A stretch of DNA of 59,581 bases, the filler included, from Squatina squatina (lineage: Eukaryota): NCBI GenBank assembly GCA_031763465.1. It is 3 parts of 2 records of this genome, joined end to end, with 100 filler letters (N's around TTAATTAATTAA, not from the genome) between each part and the next. Parts side by side here need not be neighbours in the genome. Positions count along the whole stretch, not along the records: positions 1 to 30,782 come from JARFOE010000176.1; 2 more parts are not named here. One strand, given 5' to 3'. This document shows positions 18,048 to 30,782 of the stretch, piece after piece (the stretch's first letter is position 1; every line of letters begins with the position of its first letter). The notes under the pieces were generated by a model. The model made no database searches and was not told the DNA's origin. It saw only the letters and a list, made by a program, of their open reading frames with translations. Both the position numbers and the translations under genes were made by a program.

Positions 18048-18111
18048 TTATTTCTGCTTAGAACTTGAACAGGAGCCTGAGTGAGAGGATCCAGAAGACG
18101 ATCCACTGCGC
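18048..18111 (-). CDS. ZRANB2: ZRANB2 last coding exon (RSGSSSGSSHSGSCSSSKQK*)
   Basis: Acceptor tgtcttttgcag; matches the recalled vertebrate C-terminus RHRSSSGSSHSGSRSSSKKK. Confidence 0.88.
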
Positions 18112-18388: not shown

Positions 18389-18556
18389 CTTTCTGCAGAC
18401 CAAGATCTTGAGTCAGAACGTCTAGTTTTTTTGCGGCCACTGGAGGAAGATGACCTGGAACGGCTTCGTTTTTTGCCTCTTTCAGAGGAAGATGATGATC
18501 GAGAACTTGAGCGAGACCTCTTCCTTGGAGATGAAGACCCCCGGCGTGATCTGGAG
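18389..18556 (-). CDS. ZRANB2: ZRANB2 RS-domain exon (SSRSRRGSSSPRKRSRSSSRSSSSSERGKKRSRSRSSSS...AER)
   Basis: RS-rich translation with the RGSSSPRKRS motif; donor AG|gtttgg; first usable AG at 18558-18557, although homology extends to 18562. Confidence 0.85.
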
Positions 18557-19033
18557 CTGGATTTTGATTGATTGGGAGAAAGTTAGATTTATGCCAAATA
18601 ATATTCCAACAGAATATAGTTTACCTGTTCCTTCAGGGCCCTGCAGATGATGGTTGGTGTCTCCATGATGGCGAACTACCAAACAGCCCTGAAAATCGCA
18701 CAGGTGACATGAAGATAGGTNNNNNNNNNNNNNNNNNNNNNNNNNNNNNNNNNNNNNNNNNNNNNNNNNNNNNNNNNNNNNNNNNNNNNNNNNNNNNNNN
18801 NNNNNNNNNNNNNNNNNNNNATCCCGAAATTGCAGTCAGTCATTGACAGCTCCGAAACAAGCTGTGTTGTGTCTCTCCTTTCTCTCTCTCCTTTCCCCTG
18901 CCCCCCAACTCCCCCGGCAACCACAGAGTCGGCAATCTGTGTAATCAGCCAAATCAGGGAACCTGACTAAAACATCGGCTCTTCCACACTAAGTCCACTG
19001 TTAAATTCCCCATTAAAAGTTAAACCCAGAGGG

Positions 19034-19411
19034 CAGGGTGACCAAACATCTCGATTTTGCCGGGACAGTCCCGGATTTTCAGGAAATGTCCCGGTGTACC
19101 GACAATTGTTTCAAAATTGCACAAATGTTCCATTTTCTGTGCTCACTCGACTCCCGGCAGAGAACTCACAGTACATGCGCAGTCCCGGCAGAGAAGTGAC
19201 TGCATATGCGCAGTCCCGGCGGAGAAGTGACTGCGTATGCGCAGTCCCGGCGGAGAACTGATAGCGCATGCGCAGTCCCGGCAGAGAAGTGACTGCATAT
19301 GCGCAGTCCCGGCGGAGAACTGACTGCGTATACGCAGTCCCGGAGGAGAACTGACTGCGCCTGTGCAGACTGATTGTCCCGGTTTGCCAATGTTAAGGTC
19401 TGGTCACCCTA
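19034..19411. mobile_element. hAT (Blackjack-like) MITE with internal minisatellite
   Basis: TIRs CAGGGTGACCA ... TGGTCACCCTA; subterminal gggacagtcccgg / tgtcccgg motifs; imperfect 8-bp TSD ccagaggg / gcagaggt. Confidence 0.75.
19152..19368. repeat. 7 x 31-bp tandem repeat ([31 protein letters not shown])
   Basis: Seven contiguous units counted directly. Confidence 0.92.
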
Positions 19412-20528
19412 GCAGAGGTGAGGCTGCTATCCACTGAGCCAAGGCAGTAAGGACCAACGCAAACCTCTACAAAAGGAAAAACGGAGGGGGGGGGTCCACA
19501 GACACCTGCTGTTCACACATCACACTGTGGGCCAAATAACAATGTGGTGGACCTGTTGGCCAATCAACAAATGCACATTGTTGCTTACACATGTGAGAGT
19601 CGGTGATACAGAATCCTCAAGGGTTTAAGTGCAGGATTTCACAAAGTGGTCATTGTCTTCCTGCAGCGAGGTTGTCAGTTCATAGTGTTCTCTAATGGAA
19701 CTGTCTGGTTCTTATCTGTGAGCAGCTTGTCAACAAATAGAACATGTTGTCAAGGGAGACCTGAAAGGGAAAGAAACTTGCTGTGTGTCAGAAGATCACA
19801 TTGTCCTCACTGAATATGTCTGCTGGATGCACTTGTTGGAGCTTTCACAACAAGTCATGCAGCTGTGTGTTACTTATTGAGGACAGGATTCATCTTTAGC
19901 AAAAACGTCCTTCCCTCACTGTAGGAGGGAGTATAGCCATTTGCCTTTTCTAAAAATCCATCTTCACTTGCACTAAATTTCAGGCATTTTCGCCAATATA
20001 TACTATTAGTGTGGACAACTCCAGCAAGCATCTGGTGACACTGCTAAGTGTGCATGATTTCATTCTCTAAATAGACATACTAATGCAGCAGCTACTGTTG
20101 CATTGTCACACCGTCCATAAATTAACATACAAGGAAACTTATTGGCTATGGTATGTGTGCTTGGAACTCCCACATCCTCACTTGCCTAGGTTGCCATGAC
20201 AATCCCATTTTGCTTCATCTAGATGCCATGTAATAAGCGTTTTTAAAAAAGGTTTCAACTATTTTTGCCATTTCTTTAACACTACATTCAATTGTCATTT
20301 ACATTACCCAACTAGTAACATTGTCACATTTAACTGTTATTCATGCAAAATTTTATATGCACCCACTAGATAAATACCACACTCAGCATACATCCAACAA
20401 GTGTAAATATTTATAGTTTATGGTCCTAAAAAAGTTCATTAAAGCTACACCAATCCAACTAGTTTTACTGCTTCAGTATTAAAATTATGCAGTAGAGACA
20501 TACAAGGAAAAAAGTTGAAGAAACTTAC

Positions 20529-20624
20529 TGTAAGGTTGTCTCTAAGCAACTGCATAATGAGGGTGCTGTCTTTATAGGAATCATCACTGATAATATCCAG
20601 ATTGCCAATAGCCAGATCAAATGC
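20529..20624 (-). CDS. 14-3-3 family exon ([32 protein letters not shown]), beta/zeta/theta-type exon structure
   Basis: 96-nt phase 0-0 exon, tttgtttgtctgctag / gtaagt; contains the invariant [17 protein letters not shown] signature; not in the ORF track. Confidence 0.92.
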
Positions 20625-21103
20625 CTAGCAGACAAACAAAATCAAGGATGTTAGACAAAGAAAATTGCATAATTTCTTCTGTAGATACTACTGCTACTTC
20701 CTGTCGATTCAGGTTACCAATCTTGAAGGACTTGGCTGTGGGAAGGGAAGGTCAATAACACTTGACACGGTTAAGCCAGATTAGTCATGTACCAGGTGCA
20801 TTCATCTATAGTCCTCAGACTATAGGGTACAAAGAAGGGAGCTGGGGAACAGTGCTGAGACTGTTGAATGATTTGGCAGGGATAAGGATGTTAAATGTTG
20901 AAAAGAAAGAGCAGTTTAGCAATAGAGTGATGTTATGACAGGAGGGCAAGCTGGAAGTTAGAGAATGAATTGGTGAGGGAGCTGCAGGGCAGTTCTTCCA
21001 GGGGCGAAGGACACGGGTAACAGGGTTTGAAAAGGCGGAGTGACACGGAAAGCAACTAAGATGAGTAAAAAGGACAGACAGCTACATCTGTGATCGAGAC
21101 AGT

Positions 21104-21258
21104 ACATAAGAAATAGGAACAGGAGTAGGCCATTCAGCCCCTCGATCCTGTTCCGCCATTCAATAAAATCATGGCTGATCTTCTACCTCAACTCCACTTG
21201 CCTGCACTATCCCCATATCCCTAGATTCCCTCAATATTCAAAAATCTATTGATCTGTC
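21104..21258 (-). mobile_element. CR1-type 3' tail fragment (similar copies at about 54830-54968 and 57935-58052)
   Basis: acataagaaataggaacaggagtaggccattcagcccctcga...atcatggctgatc motif repeated across the window. Confidence 0.75.
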
Positions 21259-21551
21259 AAAACTGCATCAGGGGCTCTCGTTTCTGGCCAGTGTCCGCNN
21301 NNNNNNNNACCATGCCCAAATTTGGGAATCTTCATGTTACAGCAAAATAGCAGTTCTCCCGGGAGTCCAAAATCGATATTTCAACAAGTAAAATTTCTTC
21401 AAATCCTGCCTATTAAAATAAAAGCATCCCTAGCGCTAATTCTAAAACAAGCAGAACTAGCATTGGTCGGAAACCAGCATTACTGTACAAGGCCATTACA
21501 TCAAGTTGTTTTACATTAAAAAAATTGTCTCCTAAAATGTCTACGTATTAC

Positions 21552-21628
21552 CTCATCATACTCATCATCAGATTCTTCACGCTCAATGTATTCTACATTT
21601 TCTCTTTCATTAAATCCACCTCCGTATC
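21552..21628 (-). CDS. ZRANB2: ZRANB2 exon (GYGGGFNERENVEYIEREESDDEYDE)
   Basis: 77-nt exon, tttctgacag / gtaata; nearly identical to the recalled vertebrate ZRANB2 sequence. Confidence 0.95.
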
Positions 21629-24600
21629 CTGTCAGAAATGAAAAGATAATACAATCATTTTTTTAAAAAATTGATCAAATGTAGTTTAAGGATTAAGCTA
21701 ATGTTGCAAAACTACATTCCAAAGACATTGTACATTTTACTAGGGGAGATTATTATGCATACGGGATCTATTTTTTTTTTTAATATAAAAGTGCCCAGGG
21801 AATAATGAGTCTAAATAAGTATTCGCAGATTATTATTTGATTATGCATTGACACAACAAAGATTAAACTCTCAAATGCAAGATCATGTGACAAATAGNNN
21901 NNNNNNNNNNNNNNNNNNNNNNNNNNNNNNNNNNNNNNNNNNNNNNNNNNNNNNNNNNNNNNNNNNNNNNNNNNNNNNNNNNNNNNNNNNNNNNNNNTAC
22001 CCGTGCATGTTTTGGGGGCTATCAAATTTAACCCCATACATTTTTTATATATATCCTTTCCTTCATAGCAGTGTTAAAAATAGAGAAATCCTGTAGGTGG
22101 CGCTCTTGTGGTAACATCTGCCCAGAGTAAACAAAATATGAAAGGTCATTTGTACCCAGTATGGTTTTCTATATGGGAAAATGATGTCTTGTTAAAGAGA
22201 ACTACAGCTAATTTCCCACAGCCTTTAATTTATTCTGCACACAGTGTTATTCTCAAACCTTAATTTGGTGATATTTGCATATACATAGCTTCAGGTATTT
22301 TTTCAGATATTTTTTGGTCCATGTCAAGAATCCTAATTCTATTCTCGAGCCCTAGACCTGTAATTTTTCCTTATATTTACATTTCCAGTTAAAGCTTCTG
22401 ATGCTCAAACCATATTGTATATAATGGTAACTGGTGGAGACATTTCGTTACAACCAATTTAATCTTCTGTCATGATTGTTTTGCTTGGCTTAATCTGATC
22501 CCAGTAAGGTTCTGTCCAGGATTATCCATTTATATTGTAATCTACTGATTAATTCGAGAGGATTAAACTCTGATTTGTTAACAACCCTTCATCCTTTGTA
22601 GGAGGTCAGTACTTGAGCTGAGGTGTGGCACATCATACAGTCTACTGCAGTAATGTGCATGTTACAGCTGAAATGTCATATTCTGCTTTTTGAAAACAGC
22701 TTTCCATTTTAATACTGAGTTGCTATGGAGATATTTTAACAAGTCTGTTTACAGCACAGGGCTTGTGATCNNNNNNNNNNNNNNNNNNNNNNNNNNNNNN
22801 NNNNNNNNNNNNNNNNNNNNNNNNNNNNNNNNNNNNNNNNNNNNNNNNNNNNNNNNNNNNNNNNNNNNNNTACTTTGTGCGCACTCTATAAACTGCGATC
22901 TTAAAAACATTTAACTGTAATTCTAAACTGCACTATACAACAAGAATTGCTGCAGTAACATTGCAAAACAGTGCAACCCTACACTTGTCAAATCGATTCA
23001 AACTGTACATAGATAGGGCATTTTACATTTATCAACATCACCATCACCTTACAGTAAAGCAATAATGAACTCCAAAGGTGTGTATTACTGGGATGTAAGG
23101 CAGAGCAGAATTTACTCTTTATTTGTTGGAGTAGTGGTATTCATAAGACAGTTGGGGTGATTTGCAGCCCCCTTTCTTCCTCATCTGTTAACCTTTAGCA
23201 GATTTGCTGTTCCCTTTGCCTCTGGGCCTTTGTTCATGATCTGCCCTGTTATGGGATGTTGCCGAAGGTTGGACTGAATGCTGTTCCTGCTTGTTTTCTT
23301 GCTCTCCAGCAAAAGAAGGTAAGGGAGTGCTATTAGGAGGCAGAGTTAGCTCAGATTTCATACAGCAAGTATCCTATTAAAATAGATCTATTTAATAAAA
23401 CTTTATTAGTCCTGCTTTCTTCCTGTGGGGAAGTGTATGATGGCCTTCACTTGGCAACTACCCACAGTGACATGATTTAAATCAGGAACTCACTGTGCGA
23501 GGAATTACAAGTACAGATGTGCAGCCCTTCACCTCATGGTGAGTGGCCCTTGAGCAAGGTATCAGTTGGATTTGAGGCTCTGAATTAAAGTTAGTAACAC
23601 TGCACTGAAGTTGTCTTGTGTTAGTTCATTTGCCAACTCAGACTTACACTTAATACTTAAAATGAACTGGAATCCTATCGAATACAAATGCTGAATATCA
23701 TAAGTAATAAATGGCACAATACACCAGAAAGTAAACTTTTCGATAGTGTTTTCATGTTATCAAGATCCAAGTCTTGTGAAATGTTACTTAACAACAAGAT
23801 GGACGAGCTCATTTTATAGCCTTTGAACATTTGGCTTTACAAAAATGGTATTTATTTTCTTTTCTTATTGGAATTTCAACAGGTAATATTTATTATGGGT
23901 GCGGAATAATCATAAAATAATGTCGTGATTTCTCACTTAAAGTGTCAAAAATCACTGTTTTGATCATAGTGTTTTCAGTAGGTGTATTGTTTTGCACATT
24001 TCCATAAATATGCTGTCGCAAAAAGTTGTCCTGAAGCCAACAATGCTGTGTGAGATGCTTCTTGTGATATATAAGATATTCTGAATTCATAGAAATATAG
24101 AAACAATCACCTCAATTGCTTCCATCATCAACACAACGAGTGAAAGGTCTGTAACCACCAGCACACTTGAACCTTGAGCACACTTGAGTTATACAGCTCA
24201 AAATACTCTTTCAAAGTTTGGAAGAACAACAGCCTATAATTTTTCATAGTGCTAGCAAACTAATATGAAAACTTCACATCCCTGCCATTGGGATTTAATG
24301 AAATCTTAACAACAACATTAATTCCATTTAACGATAAATGACTTTTCTGCAACTTGCCACTACATGTCCATTCTGTATACTTGTATAATATGCTCTTTCT
24401 GCTTCTTGTTAGTTTTGTTTACTTCTAGCAATATTGCAATGAAATAATAAACCGATGCTGCAAATCAATCATGTAACACACACATCACCGATAGTAATAG
24501 CAAGGAGTACAAGAAGTAATGTGGTATCCTGTGGTTACACTACAAACATATGACCTGCAATACCTTATTATAGACTGCTACTTTAATCTAATGCTCTACT

Positions 24601-29755: not shown

Positions 29756-30782
29756 TCCCATCCGGTCCTGGTGACTTATCAATTTTAAGTTCAGACAGCC
29801 TTTCTAGTACCTCCTCTTTATCAATTTTTACCTCATCCAGTATCTCCACTGCCTCCTCTTTCACTATGACTTTGGCAGCATCTTCTTCTTTGGTGAAGAC
29901 AGATGCAAAGTACTCATTTAGTACCTCAACAATGCCCTCTGCCTCCATGCATAGGTCTCCTTCTTAGTTCCTAATCAGCCCCACCCCTCTTGCTACTCAT
30001 TTACTATTTATGTGTATGCAGAAGACTTTTGAATTCCCTTTTATGTTAGCTGCCAATCGGTTCTCATACTCCCTCTTTACCCCTCTTATTTTCTTTTTCA
30101 CTTCTGCTTTGGACTCTCTATATTCAGCCTGATTCTCACTTGTACTCTCAACCTGACATCTGTCATATATGATCTTTTTCTGCTTCATCTTACTCTCCAT
30201 CTCTTCCGTCATCCAGGGAGCTCTGGGTATAGTTGCCCTACCGTTCTCCGTCTCGGGGATGTACCTCGACTGTAGGCGAACCATCTCCCCTTTAAAGGCA
30301 GCACATTGTTTGATTACAGCTTTTCCTGCCAATCTTTGATTCCAATTTACCTGGGCCAGATCCATTCCCAACCCACTGAAATTTGCCTTCCTCCAATTAA
30401 GTATTTTTAATCTAGATTGCTCCTTATCTTTTTCTATAGCAAATCTCAACCTTATGATACTATGATCGCTGTTCCCTAAATATTCCCCCACTGACATTTG
30501 CTCCACTTGACCCACCTCATTCCCCAGAACCAGATCCTGCAATGCCTCCTTCCTCATTGGGCCAGAAACATACTAATCAAGAAAGTTCTCTTGAACACAC
30601 TTCAGTAGTTCTTCCCCCTCTCTGCCTTTTACACTATTATTATCCCAGTCTATATTAGGATAGTTGAAGTCCCCCATTATCACTACTCTATACTTCTTGC
30701 ATCTCTCTGTAATTTCCCTGCAAATTTGCTCCTCCAAATCCTTCCCACTAGTTGACGGCCTATAGAATACACCTAGTAGTGT
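29756..30782 (-). mobile_element. CR1 LINE ORF2 fragment (endonuclease end through linker), disrupted
   Basis: DLVLGNEVGQVE...LGNSDH, PWMT, LNEYFASVFTKE and KSPGPDG motifs in split ORFs. Confidence 0.92.

What the first reader, a model, noticed from the sequence alone, without database searches (positions are those of the whole stretch)
20529..20624. Divergent 14-3-3 exon sitting between ZRANB2 exons on the same strand
Seen: a clean 96-nt exon with canonical splice sites encoding [32 protein letters not shown], located between ZRANB2 exons at 21552 and 18556. Only a 10-N gap (21299-21308) separates it from the upstream ZRANB2 exon. Known: vertebrate beta/zeta/theta 14-3-3 genes have this exon, normally AFDEAIAELDTL(S/N)E(E/D)SYKD..., and I know of no 14-3-3 gene in the human CTH-PTGER3-ZRANB2-NEGR1 block. 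Helix 8 here is unusually substituted while the helix 9 signature is intact. Inference: a fast-evolving, possibly lineage-specific 14-3-3 paralogue. It may be nested in or chimeric with ZRANB2 (the upstream ZRANB2 exon ends in phase 0, so a fusion would be in frame), or mis-scaffolded via the repeat at 21104-21258.
Basis: partly seen in the sequence, partly recalled or inferred. Interest (0 to 1): 0.7.

Follow-up and report, generated by a model that had tools for sequence, protein, structure and literature searches.

The report
Misplaced shark 14-3-3 theta exon
The exon is real and matches the already annotated shark 14-3-3 theta gene, whose last exon lies on a different scaffold beside its usual neighbours, so its position inside ZRANB2 is most likely an assembly error and not a nested or fused gene.

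Summary
The 96-nt exon is real (AG/GT, phase 0/0). It is not a new paralogue. It belongs to elasmobranch YWHAQ (14-3-3 theta), a fast-evolving gene already annotated in many sharks and rays. In this genome the gene's last exon and 3' flank lie on scaffold C4 in the order ADAM17, YWHAQ, TAF1B, GRHL1. Three more exons lie on unplaced contigs. All five pieces score best against elasmobranch theta. In 13 of 13 resolvable species the theta gene and PTGER3, ZRANB2's neighbour, are on different chromosome-size contigs. The assembly is fragmented: the next ZRANB2 exon was placed inside a kinesin gene on a third scaffold. The exon's contig ends in a high-copy repeat 40 bases from the 10-N gap. Verdict: likely mis-scaffolding (0.88). 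No read evidence across the gap was obtained, and the exon has four private substitutions, so a real stowaway copy is not excluded (0.08). Earlier scan notes report similar foreign exons elsewhere in this assembly, none for this gene.

The parts
20529..20624 (-). Penultimate coding exon (helix 8, loop 8, helix 9) of elasmobranch YWHAQ / 14-3-3 theta; 96 nt, phase 0/0, intact
   Evidence: local score 138 against elasmobranch theta, at most 126 against the five other groups
18821..21298 (.). 2,478-bp contig that carries the exon; 19960-21090 is single-copy in this assembly; likely belongs on scaffold C4 upstream of 12,525,238
   Evidence: placement on C4 is inferred
21101..21258 (.). High-copy SINE-like repeat ending about 40 bases from the 10-N gap
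   Evidence: 3,522 candidates, 40 scored, top hits 89-95% identical; 30,520-65,110 contigs laid per run, depth concentrated here
21299..21308 (.). 10-N scaffold gap: the only link between the 14-3-3 contig and the upstream ZRANB2 exon
   Evidence: no shared 10-mer between the two contig ends
21552..21628 (-). ZRANB2 exon (77 nt, ends in phase 0; exon 5 by recalled human numbering) on the single-copy contig 21309-21897
18721..18820 (.). 100-N gap between the 14-3-3 contig and the downstream ZRANB2 exons
18389..18556 (-). ZRANB2 RS-domain exon (exon 9 by recalled numbering); its open frame starts one base after the acceptor, so it is out of frame with the 14-3-3 exon
18048..18111 (-). Coding part of the last ZRANB2 exon, with the stop codon
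   Evidence: read from the sequence
19035..19414 (.). Second dispersed repeat with an internal tandem array, in the intron downstream of the 14-3-3 exon
   Evidence: 5,662 candidates, 40 scored
12987..13844 (-). PTGER3 first coding exon; used as the chromosome marker for the ZRANB2 block
   Evidence: 82-92% identical to shark EP3 receptors

Best explanation
The exon matches the penultimate coding exon of the shark YWHAQ (14-3-3 theta) gene, whose last exon sits on another scaffold, and its 2.5-kb contig was most likely attached to a ZRANB2 contig by a false scaffolding link. Shown: the exon's identity, the location of the other theta exons, the ADAM17-YWHAQ-TAF1B-GRHL1 neighbourhood on C4, and the repeat beside the gap. 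Inferred: read pairs mis-mapped in the repeat made the 10-N link, and the joined piece was then placed by its ZRANB2 exon. The gene would encode an ordinary dimeric phosphopeptide-binding 14-3-3 with an intact groove, an N-terminal extension and a remodelled outer helix 8 and loop 8. That function is inferred from family knowledge.
For: (1) Five separate pieces of G000 each score best against elasmobranch theta: C934592, C524417, C521851, the window exon and C4. None of the other 9 of 14 pieces has that group as its best match. Together they give one copy of each coding exon. (2) The last exon (AG acceptor, stop, 3' flank) is at C4:12,525,173-238, E 3.4e-4. ADAM17 lies downstream, TAF1B 21 kb upstream and GRHL1 40 kb upstream. 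PMC2227947 (passages read) lists ADAM17, YWHAQ, TAF1B and GRHL1 in one human 2p25 segment. The 20,758 bases between the last exon and the first TAF1B hit hold 12,750 N. (3) Theta and PTGER3 lie on contigs of different length in 7 of 7 species named in full on both sides, and in 6 of 6 more assigned from cut names or accession series; 5 species could not be resolved. (4) Tree: 12 elasmobranch rows form one clade (100/99), on the theta side of a 96/94 branch. (5) Only one theta-type copy of this exon was found: 14 of 14 protein candidates and 2 of 2 DNA candidates scored. (6) The assembly separates small contigs from their genes. The next ZRANB2 exon is on C115, between exons of a KIF1 kinesin gene on the other strand. 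Median contig length in this stretch is 1,031 bp. (7) The last 15 codons differ from each of two paralogous exons by 8 synonymous and 0 non-synonymous codons.
Against: No read, read pair or transcript was seen that links the contig to C4 or separates it from ZRANB2. No sequence overlap of 14 bases or more was found between the contig ends and the other theta contigs. The exon carries 4 of 32 residues seen in none of 16 orthologous sequences, two of them at otherwise invariant columns, against 4 of 187 in the other four exons (Fisher p = 0.017, post hoc). That could mean a relaxed duplicate. The assembly is incomplete: no matching exon of the beta-type or epsilon gene and no gamma or eta gene appeared, so a native second copy could be missing. 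PTGER3 is only a proxy for ZRANB2, and contig length only a proxy for chromosome. The window exon itself was not in the tree. Repeats also lie within 300 bases of 4 of the other 20 short gaps checked, against a small local library, so a repeat beside a gap does not by itself prove a false join.
Confidence: 0.88

Rival explanations
1. A real but silent stowaway: a 2.5-kb genomic piece of YWHAQ was copied into a ZRANB2 intron (a templated insertion or small segmental duplication), and the native exon is missing from the assembly.
For: Excess of private substitutions in this exon (4 of 32 against 4 of 187). A 10-N gap is probably a read-pair link rather than a reference-based one (inference). The assembly lacks other 14-3-3 exons. 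Earlier scan notes on this genome read two other foreign exons as such copies (unchecked).
Against: No stop, no frameshift, and both splice sites intact. All four private changes fall in codons 7-13; the chance that four random changes miss the last 19 codons is 0.02 (post hoc). The same region (positions 198, 201, 207) is the one changed across elasmobranch theta. No second copy was found. No junction with ZRANB2 sequence is assembled at either end. Identity to the sawshark orthologue (27/32) is within the range of the other exons (17/21 to 38/40).
Confidence: 0.08
2. A ZRANB2-14-3-3 chimera: the 96-nt exon is spliced in frame as a cassette after the ZRANB2 exon ending at 21552, adding 14-3-3 helices 8-9 to the splicing factor.
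For: Same strand, symmetric phase 0/0 and intact splice sites. The upstream ZRANB2 exon ends in phase 0 and the true next ZRANB2 exon (C115) starts in phase 0.
Against: It needs the physical link to be real, and YWHAQ would then lack this exon unless a second copy exists. A join to the next exon present in the window is out of frame. Phase 0/0 is shared with the paralogous exons on C13 and C203, so it says nothing about ZRANB2.
Confidence: 0.02
3. An extra, lineage-specific 14-3-3 paralogue nested in ZRANB2.
For: The peptide is only 24-26 of 32 identical to the bony-vertebrate and invertebrate 14-3-3s compared.
Against: No other 14-3-3 exon stood out in a tblastn of five theta proteins against the window (output partly cut), and none lies on C176. 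The gene set needs no extra member: a zeta-position gene 45 kb from GRHL2 on C13, a second gene on C203, a beta-type gene on C322086, and theta on C4.
Confidence: 0.02

Closest known systems
Elasmobranch YWHAQ / 14-3-3 theta (NCBI 'theta polypeptide a' or 'theta-like': XP_048387085.1 Stegostoma, XP_041043838.1 Carcharodon, XP_072354862.1 Scyliorhinus torazame, XP_072417682.1 Chiloscyllium punctatum)
   Same: 25-28 of 32 residues identical in this exon; shared altered helix 8; same N-terminal extension and C-terminal tail in the other G000 exons.
   Different: Four private residues in codons 7-13 (G, N, I, S); one residue missing in the exon on C521851.
Amniote and teleost YWHAQ (human 2p25 block; chondrichthyan YWHAQ recovered in the tree of PMC10075191, passages read)
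   Same: Same neighbours (ADAM17, TAF1B, GRHL1), same exon boundary as other beta/zeta/theta genes, same groove residues.
   Different: Much faster protein evolution: 79.6% mean core identity among 11 shark sequences against 95.4% lizard to mammal; N-terminal extension; changed helix 8 and loop 8.
Templated sequence insertions (PMC5110952; not read, known only from earlier scan notes)
   Same: A foreign exon with its own intron flanks appears inside an unrelated intron.
   Different: Here it is the only copy found, it is intact, and both ends are gaps, so no insertion junction is seen.

Membership tests
14-3-3 (Pfam PF00244) | Profile match over the curated cut-off | tested here: met
   33.6 bits against 33.2 for this exon alone; 52-100 bits for the three orphan exons (99.7, 59.4, 59.2)
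14-3-3 (Pfam PF00244) | Groove residues K49, R56, R60, K120, R127, Y128, N173, E180, I217, L220, N224 (their role is recalled) | tested here: met
   Invariant in 14 of 14 elasmobranch rows; motifs present in the G000 exons
14-3-3 (Pfam PF00244) | Dimer formation and phosphopeptide binding | not tested
   No structure or complex was predicted; binding needs experiment
YWHAQ (theta) orthology group | Lies in the ADAM17-YWHAQ-TAF1B-GRHL1 block | tested here: met
   Met for the gene's last exon on C4; the window exon is tied to it by sequence only
YWHAQ (theta) orthology group | Groups with theta in a tree | tested here: met
   96/94 branch separates all theta rows from beta/zeta-type and invertebrate rows; 25 of 28 rows used, no amniote or shark beta, zeta or sigma included
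YWHAQ (theta) orthology group | Window exon is spliced to the other theta exons | not testable with these tools
   No RNA run of this species was listed and no reads were laid on the exon
Nested gene | All exons of the inner gene lie within the host intron | tested here: not met
   The other four coding exons are on C4 and three unplaced contigs
Chimeric or cassette-exon fusion | Frame-compatible junctions | tested here: inconclusive
   In frame with the true flanking ZRANB2 exons, out of frame with the next exon in the window
Chimeric or cassette-exon fusion | Transcript or protein holding both parts | tested here: inconclusive
   None among the proteins held; no transcript test possible
Templated insertion / duplicated exon | A donor copy exists elsewhere in the genome | tested here: inconclusive
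   None found, but the assembly is incomplete
Templated insertion / duplicated exon | Assembled junctions with host-intron sequence | tested here: not met
   Both ends of the contig are N gaps

The most novel reading that the evidence does not exclude
The link is real: this shark lineage copied the helix 8-9 exon of 14-3-3 theta into a ZRANB2 intron, where it diverged at four residues and is spliced in frame, giving a splicing factor with a grafted piece of the 14-3-3 groove.
Probability: 0.02. Interest if true: 0.7.

Novelty: already known. Interest (0 to 1): 0.12.

Why it matters
Mostly as a caution: in this assembly a foreign exon inside an intron is weak evidence, because ZRANB2 and YWHAQ are each scattered over several scaffolds. 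What remains real is modest. 14-3-3 theta, 95% identical between lizard and mammal, is only about 80% identical among sharks while keeping its groove, and 3 of the 6 columns that changed across elasmobranchs lie in helix 8 and loop 8. In plant 14-3-3s loop 8 contributes to isoform specificity (PMC3946203, passages read), so shark theta may have shifted its partners. My four searches on 14-3-3 in sharks listed no paper on this acceleration, but the library lacks most subscription journals. If the chimera were real it would be a rare case of exon capture between two conserved genes.

Tried and rejected
Sequencing runs: no RNA holder listed; the best share of words was 0.11, so no near-identical run was found. 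Contigs of four public runs laid on the intronic stretch 20640-21545: no listed piece bridged the 10-N gap. One contig of run X1 (495 nt, depth 12.2) aligned to 21321-21507 from its base 162 on, but its other letters were not shown, the tables were cut and only about 55% of X1 was read. The small depth at 21260-21290 could be spill-over from the repeat or a second piece. I draw nothing from it. No reads were laid on the exon itself, so splicing partners remain untested. A degenerate DNA pattern for the last theta exon found 0 matches; a protein query then found the exon. The ADAM17 membrane-proximal family search found 0 matches among 19 candidates; ADAM17 was identified by other exons. Contig-end overlaps: none. 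GC content (contig 44%, unique part 41%, flanks 32-42%) does not discriminate. No shark ZRANB2 protein was recognised among 149 representatives, so PTGER3 served as proxy. ZRANB2 exons 1-4, 7 and 8 were not located (30 matches from 38 candidates). Three rows were dropped from the tree (P0070, P0284, P0008) and one from the identity table (P0284) because my start motif did not match. dN/dS was not computed: no orthologous nucleotide sequences were available. No structure was predicted. CTH and NEGR1 were not checked. A literature search for ZRANB2 with shark listed 5 papers, none relevant by title and abstract start. PMC4906603 (passages read) reports selection on shark YWHAE, a different gene. 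No supplements were opened; figure S13 of PMC10075191 may already show long chondrichthyan YWHAQ branches.

Full report
Observation. The exon is as described: 96 nt at 20529-20624 on the minus strand, AG/GT-bounded, phase 0 at both ends, 32 residues matching 14-3-3 helices 8-9. It sits on a 2,478-bp contig (18821-21298) with a 10-N gap on one side and a 100-N gap on the other. The stretch is G000:C176 from 5,971,900, in a 1.5-Gb assembly of 1.15 million contigs. Median gap-free length in this stretch is 1,031 bp. PTGER3 in the window is closest to shark receptors. ZRANB2 exon numbers below are recalled from the human gene; residue ranges come.

What the exon is. A protein search with the exon returned, among named hits, three carpet-shark proteins at 85% identity. 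A search with one of their cluster members gave the same gene in other sharks and rays, named 'theta polypeptide a', 'theta-like', 'zeta-like', 'beta/alpha-1-like' or '14-3-3-like'. The exon is 25-28 of 32 identical to 16 such sequences and 24-26 of 32 to the other 14-3-3s compared; its local score is 138 against this group and at most 126 against the other five. A tree of 25 core sequences puts the 12 elasmobranch rows in one clade (100/99), on the same side of a 96/94 branch as amniote and teleost theta. The tree lacks amniote and shark beta, zeta and sigma, and three rows were dropped. PMC10075191 (passages read) states that its YWHAQ cluster recovered Chondrichthyes, Actinopterygii and Sarcopterygii, so the orthologue is in print.

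Where the rest of the gene is. Family and protein searches of G000 gave 14 matches each. Three unplaced contigs of 732-1,125 bp carry the first three coding exons (C934592, C524417, C521851); two of them break off inside the exon. The last exon, with stop and 3' flank, is on C4:12,525,173-238, 120 bases from a gap. These four pieces and the window exon each score best against elasmobranch theta; the other 9 of 14 pieces do not. On C4, ADAM17 exons lie 5-13 kb downstream on the same strand, TAF1B exons 21-24 kb upstream on the other strand, and GRHL1 40 kb upstream. PMC2227947 (passages read) places these genes with YWHAQ in human 2p25; the order and orientation in human are recalled. Of the 20,758 bases between the last exon and the first TAF1B hit, 12,750 are N. 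The C13 gene lies 45 kb from a GRHL2 exon and so fills the zeta position. No extra paralogue is needed.

Other species. Lengths of the contigs that carry theta and PTGER3 differ in all 7 species named in full for both genes: Heptranchias perlo 137.9 and 89.4 Mb, Chiloscyllium punctatum 161.9 and 135.9, Stegostoma 132.2 and 104.1, Rhincodon 120.2 and 81.1, Carcharodon 201.9 and 123.5, Scyliorhinus torazame 376.3 and 323.5, Narcine 254.6 and 257.7. They also differ in 6 of 6 further pairs that I assigned from cut names or accession series. Five species (Hemitrygon, Hypanus, two Mobula, Pristiophorus) could not be resolved. PTGER3 stands in for ZRANB2. Nesting is therefore not a shared elasmobranch trait.

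The assembly separates exons from their genes. The ZRANB2 exon that should follow 21552 is an intact AG/GT exon on C115:10,960,870-1,007, on a 1.7-kb contig between gaps of 7.6 and 5.9 kb. It lies between exons of a KIF1 kinesin gene on the other strand (2 of 150 open frames hit Pfam, both kinesin). The end of the 14-3-3 contig facing the 10-N gap holds a repeat with thousands of candidate copies in G000 and tens of thousands of matching contigs in each of four public runs, followed by about 40 further bases. I infer that read pairs mis-mapped in this repeat made the link. I could not see the reads.

Against this reading. Nothing physical ties the contig to C4: no overlap was found. The exon has 4 private residues in 32, two at columns invariant in 16 orthologous sequences, against 4 in 187 for the other exons (p = 0.017, post hoc). 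The assembly lacks other 14-3-3 exons, so finding one copy does not prove there is one. Earlier scan notes on this genome read two foreign exons as real insertions (unchecked). On the other side, the four changes cluster in codons 7-13, where elasmobranch theta already differs from bony vertebrates; the last 15 codons show 8 synonymous and no non-synonymous differences from each of two paralogues; and the splice sites are intact. I give a silent duplicate 0.08, an in-frame chimera 0.02 and a nested paralogue 0.02.

How it works. The gene would make an ordinary 14-3-3. Eleven groove positions (role recalled) are invariant in 14 of 14 elasmobranch rows and present in the G000 exons. The rest of the core evolves fast: mean identity 79.6% among 11 shark sequences (68.7-99.5), 77.9% shark to ray, 95.4% lizard to mammal. 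The rate is uneven: Hemiscyllium to C. punctatum is 82.9% against 98.2% for PTGER3, but Heptranchias to Pristiophorus is 89.4% against 87.9%. Three of six columns fixed in seven bony-vertebrate rows and changed in elasmobranchs lie in this exon. A change of partner preference through helix 8 and loop 8 is a hypothesis by analogy with plant isoforms (PMC3946203, passages read); relaxed constraint fits equally well.

Novelty and score. The gene is annotated and its orthology published; its position in ZRANB2 is probably an artefact. Searches for 14-3-3 with shark, elasmobranch, chondrichthyan or elephant shark terms (listings, plus passages of two papers) showed no study of the acceleration. The scan's index held no note near this place and none with the word YWHAQ. 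Interest 0.12.

Noticed in passing
L044-L052, L054-L056 (small contigs of G000, e.g. C345904, C878174, C990304, C327930): At least 12 intronless, decayed copies of the 5' coding part of the ZRANB2 mRNA (zinc-finger region), about 66-86% identical to each other. Most stop about 30 nt into the exon seen at 21552-21628 and continue into one shared non-ZRANB2 sequence of 150 nt or more; two (L045, L054) share a different tail. In L044 and L046 the 5' part is inverted. The shared tail alone also occurs on large scaffolds. It looks like a retrocopy fragment later amplified within an old mobile element; the element type and copy number were not established.
   Followed up: partly
L053:1501-1638 (G000:C115:10,960,870-10,961,007): Intact ZRANB2 exon placed between exons of a KIF1 kinesin gene on the opposite strand; a second likely misplacement.
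   Followed up: yes
L004, L008, L014 (G000:C203:1.28-1.31 Mb): An intron-containing 14-3-3 gene with a short insertion after the first helices, 1.4 Mb from a grainyhead gene that is distant from both GRHL1 and GRHL2. It may occupy the GRHL3/SFN position (mammalian SFN is intronless, recalled), but its first exon scores equally with zeta and beta and sigma is not among the best 60 hits.
   Followed up: partly
L009:1332-1502 (G000:C322086): The beta-type 14-3-3 gene also has a diverged exon, scoring 196-197 against five groups alike.
   Followed up: no
P0122, P0244, P0246-P0251, P0254: Elasmobranch theta proteins carry an N-terminal extension of about 20-45 residues with short repeated units of variable number; G000 has it too (L007).
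   Followed up: no
window 19035-19414: Dispersed repeat with terminal parts and an internal array of about 30-bp units; arrays of several kb occur on other contigs such as C413685 and C11382.
   Followed up: no
window 29756-30782: Degenerate LINE-like sequence at the end of the first stretch, judged by eye.
   Followed up: no
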